A stretch of DNA of 64,000 bases from contig MGSS01000051.1 of the NCBI GenBank assembly GCA_001798595.1, positions 6,270 to 70,269 on the forward strand, in the 5' to 3' direction. The notes under the pieces were generated by a model. That model had not been told where the DNA came from. It saw only the letters and a program-made list of their open reading frames with translations, and did no database searches. A program made the position numbers and the translations under genes. Numbering within the stretch: position 1 is the stretch's first letter; every line of letters starts with the position of its first letter. Positions 7,647 through 62,744 of this stretch are shown here, piece by piece. Source of the stretch: Deltaproteobacteria bacterium RIFCSPLOWO2_12_FULL_60_19. GTDB lineage: Bacteria; Desulfobacterota; Binatia; UBA9968.

Positions 7647-9257
7647 GTGAAGTTTCTCGATGATCTCAAGATGTACTGGCGCTTTGCCAGCGGGCTGCGT
7701 AGCTTCCTCCGTCATACCATTTCCCTTGAGGAAGCCCGAGCCATCGTGCGCAAGCGTATGGCCGATCGGGAAAAGAATTTCCTGCGCGTTGTTGAGCGCG
7801 GAATTTTCGGCTACCGGCGCAGTCCGTATCTACCGTTGTTGAAGCTTGCTCAAGTTGAATTTGGCGATATTCGGCACATGGTGGGGTCGAAAGGGCTCGA
7901 AGGGACGCTCCGAGCGCTGCGCGACGCGGGAGTTTACATCTCCTTCGAGGAGTTCAAGGGGCGCGCGCCTATCGTGCGGCAAGGACGAGTGATTCCCGTG
8001 CAGGCTCACGATTTTGATAATCCTTACCTCGGCCACTACTACCACGTCGAAACGGGCGGGACGACCGGAGCGGGGACGCGAGTCGAGATCGATCTGGACC
8101 ACCTGGCTGCGATCGCCCCTCTCTACACGTTGGCCGACCACTCCCACGGCGTGCTTTACGTGCCCCGTGTGATTTGGTTCGGCATTCTGCCGGATAGCTC
8201 CGGCGTAAACAATATTCTTGCATACGCGCGCTCAGGCCAGCTTCCCCGGAAGTGGTTCTCGCCCGTCGTCGGTCGTGATATCAAACCGGCGCTCAAGCAT
8301 CGTCTTGCCACTGGTTACCTTGTAGCTATGGGACGAATCTTTGGCGTGCCGGTCCCATGGGCCGAGGCCGTCAGAATCGAAGACGCGGGGACGGTCGCTC
8401 GCTGGGCGGCTGAGACTCTAAAGACGGATGGCAGATGTCTGATCCGCACGCATATCAGCAAGGCGCTGCGCGTCTGTCTGGCCGCGAGGGAGGAAGGACT
8501 CGAGCTCTCCGGCGTTACTTTTGTGGGCGGCGGTGAGCCGCCCACCGCGGGGAAGGTACAGGTCATCATAGGCACCGGGGCGCGCTACGTCCCCAACTAC
8601 TTCTTTACCGAAGCCGGTATCGTAGGAATCGGCTGCGCACGGCCTGCCGCCGTAAACGACATTCACCTCTTCAAAGACGTTCTCGCTCTCATCCAATATC
8701 CGCGTCAAGTGCCCGGCACGGAGATGAGCGTCGACGCTTTCCACTTCACCACTCTGCTGCCGACCGCACCCAAGCTGATGCTCAATGTCGAGAGCGATGA
8801 TTACGGTATCATCGAAACCCGCTCTTGCGGCTGTCCGTTAGAGAGCTACGGTTTCACACAGCACCTCCGTGACATCCGCAGCTTCCGCAAGCTCACCAGC
8901 GAAGGTGTAACGCTGGTAGGCGGCGAAATGATCCGCATCCTGGACGAAGTCCTGCCGGCGAAATTCGGGGGCAGTCCTCTGGACTACCAGTTGGCCGAAG
9001 AAGAAGACGAACAAGGCTTTACCCGGCTAAGCTTGTTGATCAGTCCAAAGATAAAGATTGCCGATGAGGCGGCGGTCATCGAGACTGTGCTGGAGGCGTT
9101 GGGGCGCAGCAGTGTTGCGGCAGACTTGGCCCGAGCGCACTGGAGTCAGGCGAAGACGCTGAGGGTGAAACGGCAAGAGCCGATCTGGACAGCTCGAGGA
9201 AAGCTCATGCCGCTCCATCTCGCAAGACGCGCTGACGGCTCAACCGGTTCCCGTTAA
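7647..9257 (+). CDS. PaaK/coenzyme-F390-synthetase-like adenylate-forming enzyme (ANL superfamily), paralog A; GTG start
   Basis: 536 aa. ETGGTTGAGTRV resembles the SSGTTG P-loop of phenylacetate-CoA ligase-like enzymes. About 70% identical to the ORF at 10376-12025. Confidence 0.55.
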   Translation: MKFLDDLKMYWRFASGLRSFLRHTISLEEARAIVRKRMADREKNFLRVVERGIFGYRRSPYLPLLKLAQVEFGDIRHMVGSKGLEGTLRALRDAGVYISFEEFKGRAPIVRQGRVIPVQAHDFDNPYLGHYYHVETGGTTGAGTRVEIDLDHLAAIAPLYTLADHSHGVLYVPRVIWFGILPDSSGVNNILAYARSGQLPRKWFSPVVGRDIKPALKHRLATGYLVAMGRIFGVPVPWAEAVRIEDAGTVARWAAETLKTDGRCLIRTHISKALRVCLAAREEGLELSGVTFVGGGEPPTAGKVQVIIGTGARYVPNYFFTEAGIVGIGCARPAAVNDIHLFKDVLALIQYPRQVPGTEMSVDAFHFTTLLPTAPKLMLNVESDDYGIIETRSCGCPLESYGFTQHLRDIRSFRKLTSEGVTLVGGEMIRILDEVLPAKFGGSPLDYQLAEEEDEQGFTRLSLLISPKIKIADEAAVIETVLEALGRSSVAADLARAHWSQAKTLRVKRQEPIWTARGKLMPLHLARRADGSTGSR

Positions 9258-24089: not shown

Positions 24090-24378
24090 GTCGTGCCGCC
24101 ATCCGTGGCTATGATCGACGGATCGACCTCCGAAGAATCCGCAACGAGCCGCGCCTGCGATGATGACAAATGTCCAACGCCGAACCTAAACCCGCAGGAA
24201 GGTGACAGTGGACGGCGTTTGATCGAGAATAGTCCAAGCGGTTCAAAAATTCCAGGGAAGATAGATGGTGGGCCTGTCTGGAACAATAGAGGAATAGATC
24301 AGTAGACCGCATTTACGCTTTCTCCATTGTTCCAATGTCGAATGCTCCAATGCTCTAAATTTTTCCTACGGAAAAATT

Positions 24379-24455: not shown

Positions 24456-24460
24456 GTAAG

Positions 24461-24500
24461 AAAATTTTAGATTTTGGATTTTCGATTTTGGATTAAAAGC
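24461..24500. repeat. Short AT-rich heptad repeat tract (same family as copies A-D), next to tRNA-Met
   Basis: AAATTTTAGATTTTGGATTTTCGATTTTGGATT is a tandem (G/A)ATTTT(G/A/C) heptad run. Confidence 0.5.
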
Positions 24501-37855: not shown

Positions 37856-37896
37856 TCCAGTCCCGCAAAACGACTAGCCCTCCGGGCGGAGGGCTA

Positions 37897-37990
37897 ATGA
37901 AAATGCAAAATGAAAATTGCAAAGTGTAAAGATCAAGAGAATTTCCTGTCCCTCATTTTACAATTTGCATTTTGAGATTTGCATTCGGTC
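37897..37990. repeat. AT-rich heptad palindromic element (TGCAAAA/TTTTGCA family), copy A
   Basis: AATGAAAATGCAAAATGAAAATTGCAAAGTGTAAAG ... CATTTTACAATTTGCATTTTGAGATTTGCATTC inverted arms. About 30% GC in a ~63% GC genome. Adjacent GC hairpin GCCCTCCGGGCGGAGGGC at 37877-37894. Confidence 0.7.
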
Positions 37991-38001
37991 CTTTGACCGG
38001 C

Positions 38002-39351
38002 CTACTTGTTCACCACCTGCTTGAACACGTCCCACCCCTTCAGCAACTCCAACGCGCGCCTGAGTTGGGCGTCGTTTTCGGGCGTCATCTCGCTCATCGG
38101 CGGCACCGGTCTCTCCGTCTCCTTCTCCTTGTCCCTCTCTTTGTCCTTAAGCTCCTGCGGCGCCTGCTGGTTCTGCAAATGGCCCGGCAGATTCTCTTCC
38201 CGGACCACCGGACGCTTCCGTTCGTCTCCCTTCGTATCCGGCGGCGGCGTGTTTTCGATGACGATGTCGGGGACGATCCCGGAGGCCTGTATCGAGCGGC
38301 CCTTGGGAGTGAAGTAACGGGCCGTCGTGAGGCGGAGCGCCGAGCTGTCGTCCAGCGGCAAAATAGTCTGAACCGATCCCTTGCCGAAGGTCTTGGTTCC
38401 CAGGATCAAGGCCCGTTTGTGATCCTGCAAGGCGCCGGCGACGATCTCCGAGGCGCTCGCGCTCCCCGCGTTGACCAACACCACGATCGGGAATCCGGTC
38501 CACGAGCCCTCTTTGTGCGCGAAATATTTTTGCTTCTGGCTCTCCAGACGGCCGTCCGTATAGACGATCATCCCGGAGTCGAGAAAGAGATCGGTCACCC
38601 TGACCGCCTGGGTCAGCAGACCGCCCGGATTATTGCGCATATCCAGCACCAGCCCCTTGAGCCCGCCTTTTTCCTGGCTGAGTTTCTCCAAGGCCCGCTG
38701 GAGGTCCCGGTCGGTCCGCTCCTGAAACTGCGCGAGGCGGATATAACCGTAACCTTCCTCGAGCACGCGGCTGCGCACGCTCTGCACGCGAATGACGTCG
38801 CGCACAAGAGTAAAATTCAGCAGCTCCGGCACGCCTTCCCGCTTGACCGAGATCGTGACCTTGCTGCCCCTGTTGCCGCGCATCCGCTTGACGGCCTCCA
38901 TCAAAGACATGTCCTTGGTGAAGTCATCTTCGATCTTGATGATCTGATCCCCGGATTTCACTCCCGCGCGATAGGCCGGCGTGTCCTCGATCGGCGAAAC
39001 CACCGTCAGCACGCCGGTGCGCACCGTGATCTCGATGCCGAGGCCGCCGAATCTCCCCTGCGTGTCCATCTGCAGCTCTTTGTAGAGATCGGGGGTGAGG
39101 TAGGCGCTGTGAGGATCGAGGCCGTTCAGCATGCCGTTGATCGCGCCCGATATCAGATCCTTGGCGTTCACGTCTTCGACGTAGTTCTTTTTGACGATAG
39201 AGAGGATATTGGTGAAGGTCTCCAGGCTCTCGTAATCCTCGCGCGGCACGGCCGAGACGTTTGTCACGACATGCCCGCTTAGGATGAAACCCAGGCCGAG
39301 ACCAACCAGGAGAAATACGATCGACGCTCTATGCTTCCAAAGCACCTTCAT
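38002..39351 (-). CDS. ctpA: Carboxyl-terminal processing protease (S41 family, PDZ domain)
   Basis: PDZ (GDQIIKIEDDF). S41 catalytic region (GSASASEI ... TFGKGSVQ). Confidence 0.85.
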   Translation of the reverse strand: MKVLWKHRASIVFLLVGLGLGFILSGHVVTNVSAVPREDYESLETFTNILSIVKKNYVEDVNAKDLISGAINGMLNGLDPHSAYLTPDLYKELQMDTQGRFGGLGIEITVRTGVLTVVSPIEDTPAYRAGVKSGDQIIKIEDDFTKDMSLMEAVKRMRGNRGSKVTISVKREGVPELLNFTLVRDVIRVQSVRSRVLEEGYGYIRLAQFQERTDRDLQRALEKLSQEKGGLKGLVLDMRNNPGGLLTQAVRVTDLFLDSGMIVYTDGRLESQKQKYFAHKEGSWTGFPIVVLVNAGSASASEIVAGALQDHKRALILGTKTFGKGSVQTILPLDDSSALRLTTARYFTPKGRSIQASGIVPDIVIENTPPPDTKGDERKRPVVREENLPGHLQNQQAPQELKDKERDKEKETERPVPPMSEMTPENDAQLRRALELLKGWDVFKQVVNK

Positions 39352-39415: not shown

Positions 39416-40533
39416 TCACTTTCTAAACCAGGGAATGGGGTCCAAGGGCTTACCGTCCTTGCGGATTTCAAAATACAGCCGGGCGCCGGCGAGCGAGTCG
39501 CTGTCCCCCACCTGGGCGATCGGTTCCCCCCGGCGCACCGGCTCGCCCGGTCTTTTCAACAACTCCGAGAGATGGGCGTAGAGCGTGTAGTACCTCTGGC
39601 CGTGATCGATGATCATCATCTTGCCATAGCCCGAAAAACGGTCCGCGAAGATGACTTTGCCGCCCTCGACCGCCTTGACCTCGTCCCCCAACGACGCCTC
39701 GATGTCGATGCCTTTGCGGAACAGCTCGGCGGCAAACTCCGGGTGGCGGGTCTTGCCGAAGGTCCCTACCAGAGCGCCCTTGACCGGATAGTCCAACCGC
39801 CCGCGCATCGTCTCAAAGCCGGTCCCGGCCGGGACATCTTTCGAAATCGCCGCCGATTTGCGGTTCATCTCGTCGATCATCTTCTGGAGCTTCAGGGCCG
39901 CCTGTTCCAGCTCTTTGAGCGCCCTCTGGCGCGATTCTTTTTCGCGCCGCAAGCCGGCTAGCACCTCTTTTTTCTTCTCGCGCTCAACGCGGATCGATTC
40001 CTTGATCTCGATCAGGCTCCTTCTCTGCCGGTCCACCTCCGCCCTTCTCTGCTCCAGCTCTTTTTTTATCGCCAGCTGGCGCTGCGACTCGTCGCTCAGC
40101 CGGTCGACGAGCTTGCGGTCGTAGGCGAGCGTCACTTCCAGATAGCGCTTGCTCCGCATCAGCCCGGCCACGGAGCCGGCGCCGTTGAGCAGTATAAAAG
40201 GGCTGCCGCCGCGCTGCCATTTGTAGAGCGCCCGCGCCCGTTGTTTCAAAAGTTTCCTCCGGTCCCCGAGAGAACTGAGGAGGCGCTTCGCTTCCTCCTC
40301 TTTTTTCTGCAGATTCGCTAGAATCGTTTCGAGGATCGCGTTGACCTTCCCTAAGTCCTTTGTCTTTCGGTCGAGGCTCTCGTCGATCTTCGCGAGGCTC
40401 TCCAGGACCGAGCCTTCCTGCCGCTTGACCTTGGCGATCCCCTGCCGCTCCTTCTCGATCTTTTGTTTGATGCCTCCAAGCTCCCGCTCGACCGCGGCGC
40501 CACGCGCGATCAAGGGCAAGAGCAGGCTCATTG
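39416..40533 (-). CDS. envC: Coiled-coil M23 peptidase-domain protein (EnvC-like murein hydrolase activator)
   Basis: Long coiled-coil N-terminal region followed by an M23 domain (DHGQRYYTLYAHLSE). Lies downstream of ftsEX. The start is ambiguous (40533, or further upstream through the AT-rich element). Confidence 0.65.
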
Positions 40534-40626
40534 CAAAATGAAAAATGCAAAATGCAAAAGTTAAAACGGGTTGGAGTTTCCGTCTTTCAATTTGAATTTT
40601 GCACTTTGCAATTTTCATTTTACACT
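40531..40626. repeat. AT-rich heptad palindromic element, copy B
   Basis: TGCAAAATGAAAAATGCAAAATGCAAAAG ... CAATTTGAATTTTGCACTTTGCAATTTTCATTTTACA. Confidence 0.7.
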
Positions 40627-40647
40627 CGCGCGTCTTCGGCGCGCGCA

Positions 40648-58915: not shown

Positions 58916-58923
58916 CCCCCGTC

Positions 58924-59016
58924 CAATTTTGAATTTTGAATTTTGAATTTTGAATTTTAGATTTTAGATTCCAATTACAAACTAAAAACTCAAAACTTAA
59001 AACTTTTGCATTTTGC
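58924..59016. repeat. AT-rich heptad palindromic element, copy C
   Basis: AATTTTGAATTTTGAATTTTGAATTTTAGATTTTAGATT ... CTTTTGCATTTTGCATTTTGCC. Confidence 0.7.
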
Positions 59017-59038
59017 ATTTTGCCGTGTCCTCTCATCT

Positions 59039-62063: not shown

Positions 62064-62139
62064 GAAAAACAGGCAACAGGCGTGAGGCGTGAGTTTTTTC
62101 TCCCCCCTACCGCCTTCTGCCTCTCGCCTTTCGCCTAGT

Positions 62140-62608: not shown

Positions 62609-62733
62609 AACTCTGCAATGCAAAAGGAAAATTGAAAAGTGTCAAAGTCGAAATATCTGATTCCGGGCGGCCGGATTTCGGACAGGACTTCCTAAAACTT
62701 TTGCATTTTTCATTTTGCACTTTGCATTTTGGA
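62609..62733. repeat. AT-rich heptad palindromic element, copy D (with central GC hairpin)
   Basis: TGCAAAAGGAAAATTGAAAAGTGTCAAAG ... CTTTTGCATTTTTCATTTTGCACTTTGCATTTTGG. Central TCCGGGCGGCCGGA. Confidence 0.7.
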
Positions 62734-62744
62734 TTGACCGGTTG

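What the first reader, a model, noticed from the sequence alone, without database searches (positions are those of the whole stretch)
37897..37990. Family of AT-rich palindromic elements built from TGCAAAA/TTTTGCA heptads, inserted immediately upstream of start codons inside operons
At least five copies occur (37897-37990, 40531-40626, 58924-59016, 62609-62733, and a short tract at 24461-24500). Each is ~90-125 bp at ~25-30% GC in a ~63% GC background. Each is an imperfect inverted repeat whose arms are tandem heptads (CAAAATG on one strand). Two copies carry a central or adjacent GC hairpin. Every full copy lies within 0-40 bp of the start codon of the downstream gene in a co-directional operon (xseA, envC, lptE, ribH). 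Some create spurious N-terminal extensions in ORF calls (MQNEKCKMQKLK..., MKIAKCKIQ..., MQNAKVLSFEF...). Possible roles are internal promoters/UP elements, nucleoid-protein binding arrays, RNA processing sites, or a MITE family with a strong insertion preference for the RBS-proximal region.
Basis: seen in the sequence. Interest (0 to 1): 0.6.

Follow-up and report, generated by a model that had tools for sequence, protein, structure and literature searches.

The report
Hairpin-forming heptanucleotide repeat arrays
The AT-rich elements are real, but they are fast-turning-over tandem 7-base repeats arranged as hairpins at gene boundaries, a known and poorly understood class of bacterial simple repeats; they are not a mobile-element family or promoters, and two of them appear to be translated as the start of exported proteins.

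Summary
All five reported sites exist. They are tandem TNCAAAA/TTTTGNA heptads at 27-34% GC in a 58.6% GC window. Local shuffles give no such arrays. Four sites are inverted twin arrays that fold into long AU-rich hairpins. I found a sixth, GC-richer heptad palindrome at 62065-62137.

The copies share only heptad composition. Their centres are unrelated and filled/empty-site comparisons show no target duplication, so this is not a MITE or REP-type family. Rfam, promoter and terminator scans are negative.

Turnover is fast. The envC-side and ribH-side elements are missing from a sister species about 92% identical in DNA, and from outgroups. The lptE and nusB sites carry different heptads in each species.

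The lptE and envC-like elements lie downstream of conserved start codons and stay in frame. The A-rich arm encodes a Lys-rich signal-peptide n-region, so those N-terminal extensions are probably real. The xseA element sits 5' of a conserved terminator hairpin.

Arrays of the same heptad occur in many phyla and in viral contigs. An A-rich arm upstream of the T-rich arm is favoured 31:5.

Best reading: heptanucleotide simple-sequence repeats like those of Nostoc, Beggiatoaceae and Xanthomonas, generated by slippage and arm-to-arm template switching. Any effect on mRNA is secondary and untested.

The parts
24459..24498 (-). el5: a single array of about 5 heptads (sense strand: AATCCAA AATCGAA AATCCAA AATCTAA AAT). 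It lies between the rpoD stop (24548) and the 5' end of tRNA-Met (24455). It has no inverted partner.
37896..37988 (-). el1: a 93-nt heptad hairpin in the 3' untranslated region of ctpA (S41 peptidase). The A-rich arm is 37950-37986, the loop 37931-37949 and the T-rich arm 37897-37930.
   Evidence: (z -4.8)
37875..37896 (-). GC hairpin TAGCCCTCCG/CGGAGGGCTA followed by GTCGTTTTG. It is conserved in an outgroup, where it carries a clear T-tract, so it is the ancestral terminator between ctpA and xseA. It is not part of the heptad element.
   Evidence: (40/41 identical to sister)
40532..40626 (-). el2: a 95-nt heptad hairpin (A-rich arm 40591-40626, T-rich arm 40532-40566). It lies inside the open frame of the envC-like M23 peptidase gene, downstream of the conserved ATGGTG start that overlaps the ftsX stop.
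   Evidence: (z -6.8)
40627..40647 (-). GC hairpin GCGCGCGCCGAAGACGCGCG immediately 5' (sense strand) of el2. It is part of the 90 nt that the sister species lacks.
58920..59026 (-). el3: a composite A(3)-T(4)-A(7) heptad array inside the 5' coding region of lptE, between the conserved SD+ATG (59036) and the lipobox Cys. It is translated as MRGHGKMQNAKVLSFEFLVCNWNLKSKIQNSKFKIQNW...
62065..62137 (-). el6 (new): a GC-richer heptad palindrome that fills the ribH>nusB spacer. Sense strand: AGGCGAA AGGCGAG AGGCAGA AGGCGGT ... CTCACGC CTCACGC CTGTTGC CTGTTTT TC-ATG.
   Evidence: (-33.9 kcal/mol)
62612..62735 (-). el4: a 124-nt heptad hairpin with a central CCGG-CCGC-CCGG hairpin. It fills the ribBA>ribH spacer and ends 8 nt before the ribH ATG.
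   Evidence: (z -3.3)

Best explanation
The elements are heptanucleotide simple-sequence repeats. This is the class of 7-nt tandem repeats that is over-represented in many prokaryotes, for example the cyanobacterial STRR/heptamer repeats, the Beggiatoaceae TAACTGA repeats and the Xanthomonas GGGAATC repeats. Here they are organised as inverted twin arrays around an unrelated centre.

Shown:
- They are not copies of one master sequence.
- They are gained, lost and re-written between genomes that are about 92% identical.
- They sit only where extra DNA is tolerated: intercistronic spacers, a 3' untranslated region ahead of a terminator, the leader of a tRNA, and the 5' ends of two genes for exported proteins. 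In those two genes they stay in frame, and the A-rich arm supplies a Lys-rich signal-peptide n-region.

Inferred:
- The arrays grow and homogenise by replication slippage in 7-nt steps.
- The two arms are kept complementary by intrastrand template switching (quasi-palindrome correction), by selection on the hairpin, or by both.
- On the mRNA they fold into AU-rich stems of roughly 25-37 base pairs. These probably alter processing, stability or translational coupling at the cistron boundary, in the way REP-like stem-loops do. This would be a by-product rather than the reason they exist.
For: - Period 7 is the only non-coding period enriched in the window.
- Arms differ in the order and variant of their heptads, and the centres are unrelated.
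- el4 is absent from sister-species contigs, where the spacer is 15 nt (L210-L213, L637-L639). It is also absent from four more distant relatives.
- el2 is absent from the sister species and from outgroups, where the spacer is 8-11 nt and the signal peptide is canonical.
- The lptE site carries CAAAATT arrays in the window, CAAAAYT in L130 and YGAAACC/AGAAGGC/NTATCGN in L211. More distant relatives have no heptad arrays there.
- The nusB site carries AGGCGAG/CTCACGC in the window and AGTCAGC/GCTGAGA in L211. Within-species arm pairing is better than cross-species pairing.
- Coding frames stay open: the M23 insertion is exactly +90 nt, and only the lptE frame lacks stop codons.
- The same heptad array occurs in more than 120 loci from many phyla and 110 viral contigs. 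Five other T4NNN permutations are similarly common, at 32-109 contigs.
- The literature reports heptamers as the most abundant long simple-sequence-repeat class, explained there by polymerase slippage. It also reports heptamer repeats next to start codons in other lineages, including (TTCAAAA)3-4 in Nostoc (PMC4679880; PMC4692102; bioRxiv 10.1101/2022.06.06.494920).
Against: - No length polymorphism was seen. el3, el4 and el6 are identical in six independent metagenome assemblies, so the arrays are not hypermutable on short time scales.
- The el1 arms differ from the sister species at 8.5% of sites and the adjacent hairpin plus leader at 2.4%, against 13-19% at four-fold sites of the two flanking genes (ctpA, xseA) and 30% in ftsX. 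Its loop differs at 63%. That pattern, with stems kept and loop free, suggests constraint on the hairpin.
- The strong 31:5 excess of A-arm-first over T-arm-first pairs across phyla is not predicted by slippage alone.
- Appearance of whole arrays at previously empty sites, and in frame inside conserved genes such as leuS in other lineages, is hard to explain by stepwise 7-nt slippage.
- Slippage and template switching were not observed directly.
Confidence: 0.6

Rival explanations
1. The elements are selected RNA structures. The long AU-rich hairpins would be functional intercistronic or 3'UTR elements. They could act as REP-like barriers to 3' exonucleases, as RNase III or RNase E processing sites that uncouple cistron stabilities, or as stems that gate translation initiation. 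The heptads might also act as binding units for S1, Csp or Hfq-type proteins. In this view the heptad repeat is only the raw material.
For: - Hairpins are far more stable than shuffled sequence for el1, el2 and el4, and for el1 in the sister species.
- The el1 stems are more conserved than synonymous sites, while the loop is free to change.
- The arms at the nusB site changed sequence but still pair.
- Sense-strand RNA is more stable than antisense in 5 of 7 comparisons.
- In sister-species contig L210, three T-arm/A-arm stems enclose the Shine-Dalgarno sequence and AUG in their loops.
- MacGregor 2015 proposed S1, Csp or CsrA binding for heptamer repeats next to start codons.
Against: - el2 and el4 are absent from a genome 92% identical in DNA with the same operons, so they are dispensable.
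- The contexts are heterogeneous: 3'UTR, coding region, spacer and tRNA leader.
- el3 and el5 do not fold better than shuffles.
- No clean compensatory pairs were seen in el1.
- Arm complementarity can be maintained by template switching without selection.
- The sense/antisense difference is not significant.
Confidence: 0.25
2. The elements are a miniature inverted-repeat transposable element (MITE or foldback) family. Its terminal inverted repeats would be heptad arrays, mobilised in trans, with a preference for sites near ribosome-binding sites.
For: - The architecture is an inverted repeat of 90-125 nt.
- Presence and absence differ between sister genomes.
- The location between genes resembles that of REP elements and MITEs.
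Against: - Copies are not alignable outside their heptad composition, and their centres are unrelated.
- There is no target-site duplication or sharp boundary at the el2 and el4 filled versus empty sites. The flanking spacer is rewritten as well.
- Different heptads occupy the same site in sister species, which is turnover in place rather than insertion.
- The same arrays occur in many phyla and in viruses, and every T4NNN permutation is similarly frequent.
- Single-arm arrays exist (el5).
Confidence: 0.05
3. The elements are DNA-level protein-binding arrays. They would serve as UP-element or internal promoters, or as nucleoid-protein or regulator binding sites made of iterated heptads in AT-rich islands.
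For: - AT-rich islands in a GC-rich genome are typical targets of nucleoid proteins.
- Heptamer direct repeats bind regulators in some systems (cited).
Against: - No sigma-70-like hexamer pair falls in any element.
- el1 lies upstream of a terminator hairpin, so it cannot drive xseA.
- el2 and el3 are inside coding frames.
- The elements are dispensable in the sister species.
- Heptad sequences differ between species at the same site, which argues against a sequence-specific binding protein.
Confidence: 0.06
4. The elements are expanded intrinsic (bidirectional) terminators or attenuators. The A-rich arm, centre and T-rich arm would be an overgrown A-tract/hairpin/U-tract.
For: - The A-arm-first orientation dominates 31:5 in 120 loci from many phyla, with arm gaps typical of terminator hairpins (median 33 nt).
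- Some centres are GC hairpins (L011, L014, L112; el4).
- el1 abuts a conserved terminator.
Against: - The terminator scan finds none on the sense strand at the window elements.
- Many centres have no hairpin.
- el4, el6 and el2 sit between or inside genes of tightly packed essential operons (ribBA-ribH-nusB, ftsX-envC), where termination would be harmful.
- The stems are AU-rich and 25-37 bp long, unlike canonical terminators.
Confidence: 0.04

Closest known systems
Cyanobacterial heptamer repeats (STRR; Nostoc PCC 7120 (TTCAAAA)3-4 and GACYAAT repeats near start codons)
   Same: Both are tandem 7-nt units dispersed at many intergenic sites, often within a few bases of, or overlapping, a start codon. 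The Nostoc heptad TTCAAAA is one of the units used here (window el3). Function is unknown in both, and a role in translation or transcription has only been speculated (STRR from my own knowledge of Mazel et al. 1990).
   Different: Here the arrays mostly come as inverted pairs that form long hairpins, in a GC-rich non-cyanobacterial MAG (probably Binatia). The STRR1-3 consensus heptamers are different sequences. Two arrays here are translated.
TAACTGA heptamer direct repeats of marine Beggiatoaceae, some Cyanobacteria and Bacteroidetes (MacGregor 2015, PMC4679880)
   Same: Both are 2-6 or more tandem heptamers located directly upstream of start codons, in place of a Shine-Dalgarno sequence. 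Both have a scattered phylogenetic distribution. Strain differences are mostly 7-nt indels. Other heptamers share the same spacers.
   Different: The Beggiatoaceae set has a single conserved heptamer, oriented toward the start codon, with only 1 of 170 sets inverted. Here there are variable heptads, paired inverted arms, and no consistent relation to the start codon.
GGGAATC / GGGGAYT heptameric simple-sequence repeats of Xanthomonas and Nostoc (Rehm 2015, PMC4692102)
   Same: Both are intergenic heptamer arrays, most often of about 4 units. Sister species carry them between the same genes but with extensive length and sequence variation. Some are arranged as inverted repeats able to form stem-loops.
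   Different: Those are G-rich and form quadruplexes. The arrays here are mostly A4/T4-based and cannot form G4 structures.
REP / BIME / REPIN elements
   Same: Both are extragenic palindromes placed between co-directional genes and in 3' untranslated regions. Both form stem-loops on the mRNA and differ in presence between relatives.
   Different: REPs are a conserved sequence family of about 20-40 nt tied to a RAYT transposase (PMC3116915 listed; details from my own knowledge). The elements here share no conserved core, and no RAYT could be looked for.
MITEs (e.g. Correia, RUP, ERIC, Nezha)
   Same: Size (about 100 nt), terminal inverted repeats and intergenic location.
   Different: MITE copies are near-identical and carry target-site duplications. 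Neither is seen here.
Bidirectional intrinsic terminators
   Same: Both have the A-rich / hairpin / T-rich order, which is the dominant orientation of these palindromes across phyla.
   Different: There is no GC stem directly followed by a U-tract within the window elements, and they lie inside operons and coding regions.

Membership tests
Heptanucleotide long simple-sequence repeats (STRR-like) | Head-to-tail tandem copies of a 7-nt unit, at least 3 units | tested here: met
   Tandem Repeats Finder reports period 7 with 2.4-5.3 copies at every site. The pattern and lag-7 scans agree, with 0 arrays in shuffles.
Heptanucleotide long simple-sequence repeats (STRR-like) | Many dispersed loci per genome, mostly non-coding | tested here: met
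   There are six sites in 64 kb. Further arrays lie in the 6.5 kb beyond the window in the same species (L001), and seven segments lie in 9.7 kb of the sister-species contig L210.
Heptanucleotide long simple-sequence repeats (STRR-like) | Rapid change of unit number or sequence between close relatives, with homogenisation inside an array | tested here: met
   The lptE and nusB sites carry different, internally homogeneous heptads in the window, L130, L211 and L637. Against this, there was no variation among six assemblies of the same species.
Heptanucleotide long simple-sequence repeats (STRR-like) | Identity to the named STRR1-3 consensus heptamers (CCCCAGT, TTGGTCA, CAACAGT) | tested here: not met
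   The units here are TNCAAAA variants and AGGCGAG/CTCACGC. This is the same kind of repeat, not the same named families.
MITE | Near-identical copies with a conserved internal sequence | tested here: not met
   The centres of el1, el2 and el4 are unrelated, and the arms differ in heptad order.
MITE | Target-site duplication and sharp boundaries at filled versus empty sites | tested here: not met
   The alignments of el2 (window vs L207) and el4 (window vs L211) show rewritten flanks and no duplication.
REP/REPIN | Conserved palindromic core shared by all copies | tested here: not met
   No shared core exists beyond heptad composition.
REP/REPIN | Cognate RAYT (IS200/IS605-like) transposase in the genome | not testable with these tools
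   Only about 75 kb of this MAG can be reached.
Intrinsic terminator | GC-rich stem immediately followed by a U-tract on the transcribed strand | tested here: not met
   The scan flags no sense-strand site at any heptad element. The separate GC hairpin at 37875-37896 is terminator-like, and its outgroup homologue has a T-tract.
Sigma-70 promoter / UP element | -35 and -10 hexamers with 16-18 nt spacing | tested here: not met
   None of the promoter-like matches falls in an element. Other promoter types were not covered.
Any described RNA family (Rfam 15) | Covariance-model match at or above the gathering score | tested here: not met
   Only the two tRNAs match at gathering score. In E-value mode, el2 gives sub-threshold look-alikes of eukaryotic miRNA precursors (24-31 bits against 60-83 needed), and the second searched region (el3, el6, el4) gives no match.

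The most novel reading that the evidence does not exclude
Inverted twin arrays of heptads around an arbitrary centre may be a recurrent, cross-phylum structural module rather than repeat debris. Several observations point that way:
- The A-arm-first orientation is favoured 31:5 in 120 unrelated genomes.
- The arms co-evolve at a fixed site.
- The stems are more conserved than synonymous sites.
- Whole arrays appear in one step at empty sites and in frame inside conserved genes.

Two readings would fit. One is an unrecognised templated repeat-adding or fold-back synthesis process. The other is a general RNA-level function at cistron boundaries, with the A-rich arm repeatedly co-opted as the Lys-rich n-region of signal peptides (the KSKIQN..KW motif in LptE, a substrate-binding protein and small membrane proteins).
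Probability: 0.18. Interest if true: 0.7.

Novelty: new member of a known kind. Interest (0 to 1): 0.4.

Why it matters
- **Annotation.** Start codons and N-termini of exported proteins such as LptE and the EnvC-like peptidase are easily mis-set around these arrays. The elements could also be mistaken for MITEs, small RNAs or promoters.
- **Biology.** The window gives a clean natural experiment, with filled and empty sites in genomes 92% identical. It shows how heptanucleotide repeats arise, are rewritten in place, keep their two arms complementary, and can be absorbed into coding sequence as new signal-peptide segments.
- **Open question.** Heptamer repeats have been known to be over-represented in prokaryotes since 2007, and neither their mechanism nor their function has been established. 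A GC-rich lineage where they stand out as AT islands, inside well-known essential operons (ftsEX-envC, ribBA-ribH-nusB, leuS-lptE), is a convenient place to test both.

Tried and rejected
- **Rfam.** Searches at gathering score and at permissive E-value found nothing relevant.
- **Promoter and terminator scans.** The elements give no hits.
- **MITE test.** Filled/empty-site alignment shows no target duplication.
- **Literature search for the literal repeat.** No relevant paper contains it.
- **Is TGCAAAA a special heptad?** No. All six T4NNN permutations give 32-110 viral contigs. The heptad is stop-free in all six frames, but that does not make it uniquely common.
- **Compensatory substitutions in el1.** None are clear. 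The pairing register simply shifts by a heptad.
- **Sense versus antisense RNA stability.** The result is 5 of 7 in favour of sense, which is not significant.
- **Position relative to genes in 120 foreign loci.** My crude ORF caller gave a heterogeneous picture: 30 co-directional, 13 convergent, 7 divergent and many inside ORFs. This is too rough to support a positional preference.
- **A covariance model of the "family".** Not attempted, because the copies are not homologous column by column.
- **DNA for the RibH variant P0006.** It could not be retrieved. Its ribBA>ribH spacer is about 150 nt, so it seems to carry an el4-like element.

Full report
**1. The observation**

All five sites exist at the stated coordinates. 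They are the most extended low-GC islands in the window, at 27-34% GC against a window mean of 58.6%.

Tandem Repeats Finder reports period-7 arrays at each site. A scan for three TTTTGNA units with up to 3 mismatches finds only these sites, and none in 20 locally shuffled windows. A looser lag-7 scan gives 10 segments, against 1, 0, 1 and 0 for periods 5, 8, 10 and 11.

Four sites are imperfect inverted repeats with arms of 29-34 nt at 77-85% complementarity. Folded as RNA, el1, el2 and el4 are far more stable than shuffled sequence (z = -4.8, -6.8 and -3.3). The lptE copy (z = -0.9) and the short tract next to the tRNA (z = -0.1) are not.

It is a GC-richer heptad palindrome that fills the ribH>nusB spacer at 62065-62137.

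**2. Gene context**

All genes involved are on the minus strand. The order is:

- ftsX > el2 > envC-like M23 peptidase > ctpA (S41 peptidase) > el1 > xseA
- leuS > el3 > lptE
- ribBA > el4 > ribH > el6 > nusB
- rpoD > el5 > tRNA-Met

The record is an NCBI MAG labelled "Deltaproteobacteria bacterium" (proteins OGQ82497-82509). Its FtsX homologues at 55-67% identity are named Candidatus Binatia.

On the sense strand, el1, el2 and el4 read as A-rich arm, centre, then T-rich arm. el3 reads A(3)-T(4)-A(7).

**3. Not a sequence family**

The copies share heptad composition only. The order of heptad variants differs from copy to copy and the centres are unrelated.

- Rfam finds nothing. At gathering score only the two tRNAs match. 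In E-value mode only sub-threshold look-alikes of eukaryotic miRNA precursors appear, on el2.
- No sigma-70-like promoter or sense-strand terminator consensus falls in any element.
- No relevant paper in the library contains the literal repeat.

**4. Turnover between relatives**

Six independent metagenome assemblies of the same species carry identical el3 and el4 and identical arrays at the el6 site in L001. A sister species about 91-92% identical in DNA (L207-L213, from GCA_041483675.1 and GCA_041490805.1) differs sharply, site by site.

- **el4.** It is absent from the sister species, where the ribBA>ribH spacer is 15 nt. It is also absent from L637-L639 and from relatives at 62-77% RibBA identity (L127, L128, L140, L161), whose spacers are 17-37 nt. 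It is therefore a recent gain. One further close relative (P0006) has a spacer of about 150 nt and probably a related element, but no DNA was available for it.
- **el2.** It is absent from the sister species and from outgroups, which have an 8-11 nt spacer and a canonical signal peptide. It too is a gain.
- **el1.** It is present in both species and is 93 nt in each. The arms are 65/71 identical and the adjacent GC hairpin plus xseA leader 40/41. The loop is only 7/19 identical and the 5' flank 3/15. Four-fold sites differ by 13% in xseA, 19% in ctpA and 30% in ftsX. The stems therefore change more slowly than synonymous sites and the loop much faster. Both versions fold equally well, but in registers shifted by one heptad and without clean compensatory pairs.
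- **el3 site.** Three species carry three different, internally homogeneous arrays. The window has CAAAATT. L130 (80% LeuS identity) has CAAAAYT. L211 has YGAAACC plus AGAAGGC and NTATCGN. Relatives at 73% LeuS identity or less (L127, L128, L129 and further) show no heptad arrays there.
- **el6 site.** The window has AGGCGAG.../...CTCACGC. L211 has AGTCAGC.../...GCTGAGA. L637 has yet another palindrome. Distant relatives have no repeats there. Within-species arm duplexes (-29.9 and -24.5 kcal/mol) are more stable than cross-species ones (-23.2 and -17.2), which suggests the arms co-evolve.

The filled versus empty alignments for el2 and el4 show no target-site duplication. The flanking spacer is rewritten as well.

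**5. Two elements are probably translated**

*lptE.* A GGAGGG Shine-Dalgarno sequence and a start codon directly after the leuS stop are conserved in the window, L211, L130, L128 and L127. In the window, only the lptE frame is free of stop codons from that ATG through el3 to the lipobox Cys. The five other frames have 2-4 stops. L130 has an ATG immediately before its A-rich array, and the same reading frame gives KIQNSKLKIQN, against KIQNSKFKIQN in the window.

*M23 peptidase.* The ancestral ATGGTG start overlapping the ftsX stop is retained. The window is exactly 90 nt longer than the sister species. The frame is open and reads MVMRAPKTRECKMKIAKCKIQIERRKLQPVLTFAFCIFHFAMSLLLPLIARGAAVERE, against MVKTAAISLSLLLSFGACLARAAEVERE in the sister. 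The A-rich arm gives a Lys-rich n-region and the T-rich arm gives a hydrophobic stretch.

In sister-species contig L210, three more genes read an A-arm as ...RKSKIQNLKW followed by a hydrophobic segment.

No proteomic evidence exists for either.

**6. el1 is not in front of xseA in the functional sense**

The GC hairpin at 37875-37896 is conserved in outgroup L635, where it is followed by a clear T-tract. el1 therefore sits in the 3' untranslated region of the ftsEX-envC-ctpA unit, just 5' of its ancestral terminator.

**7. The same thing elsewhere**

These come from Planctomycetota, Acidobacteriota, Bacteroidota, Clostridia, candidate phyla radiation lineages, Omnitrophota, Nostocales, Nitrospirae and even a halobacterial MAG. 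Other heptad arrays are often adjacent.

Viral contigs hold 110 such loci. The five other permutations of TTTT+{G,C,A} give 32-109, so TGCAAAA is not special.

In 80 unbiased leuS loci, period-7 arrays of many different sequences outnumber period-8 and period-9 arrays. Some are paired as inverted arrays, and some sit in frame inside leuS.

Among the 120 loci, 31 have an A4-heptad array within 250 nt upstream of the T-array and only 5 have one downstream. The background is about 0.03 per 250 nt. The centres have a median length of 33 nt and are heterogeneous; only some are GC hairpins. This orientation bias is the one feature that slippage does not explain. It matches the A-tract/hairpin/U-tract order of bidirectional terminators.

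Inside long ORFs, the A-rich, Lys-coding sense orientation predominates (crude gene calls).

**8. What is known**

- Heptanucleotide repeats are reported as the most abundant long simple-sequence-repeat class in most prokaryotic genomes. The proposed cause is polymerase slippage over a roughly 7-nt contact (Mrazek 2007, as summarised in PMC4679880 and PMC4692102).
- TAACTGA repeats lie directly upstream of start codons in Beggiatoaceae. S1, Csp and CsrA were proposed as binders.
- Xanthomonas GGGAATC arrays lie between the same genes in sister species, with extensive length and sequence variation. Some form inverted pairs.
- Geobacter metallireducens has several four- and five-heptad "regulatory" families.

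The window's elements are another instance of this kind. They are made conspicuous by their AT-richness in a GC-rich genome and by their twin-arm arrangement.

**9. Verdict**

It is best explained as heptanucleotide simple-sequence repeats organised as quasi-palindromes. They are generated and homogenised by slippage and arm-to-arm template switching. They are tolerated at cistron boundaries and in signal-peptide coding segments. Probable effects on the mRNA are secondary and untested.

A selected RNA-hairpin role cannot be excluded, and the conservation pattern of el1 supports it to a degree. MITE, promoter and terminator readings are disfavoured.

Novelty is modest: a new member of a known but poorly understood class. 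The side observations may deserve a proper survey. These are co-option into signal peptides, rewriting of arrays in place, and the cross-phylum orientation bias.

Noticed in passing
window 62065-62137: A sixth heptad palindrome, GC-richer, fills the ribH>nusB spacer and ends TTTTTC-ATG. The sister species has different heptads at the same site, and a third relative (L637) has a different long palindrome there.
   Followed up: yes
L210 960-1135, 2060-2225, 3270-3440: The sister species has three modules of T-rich heptad arm, then Shine-Dalgarno sequence plus ATG, then about 45 nt, then A-rich heptad arm. They fold at -44 to -65 kcal/mol with the initiation region in the loop. The ORFs read the A-arm as RKSKIQNLKW followed by a hydrophobic segment, the same n-region motif as the window's LptE. 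The modules lie around an insertion encoding two PIN-domain proteins and an AF2212-like protein, which is absent from the window species.
   Followed up: partly
L001 2382-2425 and 3265-3301 (same species, just beyond window end): GTGAGGN heptad arrays start 0-4 nt after the stop codons of two paralogous ABC substrate-binding protein genes, and are followed by CTCAGCC/GGCTGA-type palindromes.
   Followed up: no
L042; L170 1258-1335; L180 2399-2435; L184 758-795; L098: Heptad arrays sit inside conserved coding regions in other lineages: the leuS match region in L170, L180 and L184, and long ORFs in L042 (leuS-like by eye) and L098. In L042 the inserted residues read ECKMQNAKCKIM. An in-frame array in an essential gene implies gain of about 21 nt in one step rather than stepwise 7-nt slippage.
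   Followed up: no
window 37875-37896 and L635 ~8590-8625: The GC hairpin AGCCCTCC..GGAGGGCT between ctpA and xseA is conserved down to an outgroup with 66% FtsX identity, where it has a canonical T-tract. A terminator therefore separates xseA from the ftsEX-envC-ctpA genes.
   Followed up: partly
window 24322-24378: Directly 3' of tRNA-Met lies an AT hairpin (AATTTTTCC-GTA-GGAAAAATT), followed by four or more octamer repeats (AGCATTGG-like, period 8).
   Followed up: no
window 38111-38148: A hexamer/12-mer repeat (TCTCCT-like, about 6 copies) lies inside the 3' part of the ctpA coding region, giving a low-complexity C-terminal segment.
   Followed up: no
L138 374-434 and 4716-4815; L147 6589-6660 and 7557-7585; L169 3199-3566: Unrelated lineages in the leuS neighbourhood carry inverted pairs of other heptads (GCGGAAT/ATTCCGA, GGCAGTA/CTGCCCA, CGTATTG/ACGATAT). 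In L147 the pair flanks lptE. Twin-arm heptad arrays are therefore not limited to A4/T4 units.
   Followed up: no
window-wide; The NCBI label is 'Deltaproteobacteria bacterium', but the nearest named FtsX homologues are Candidatus Binatia. The organism is probably a member of Binatota from Rifle-type groundwater samples.
   Followed up: partly
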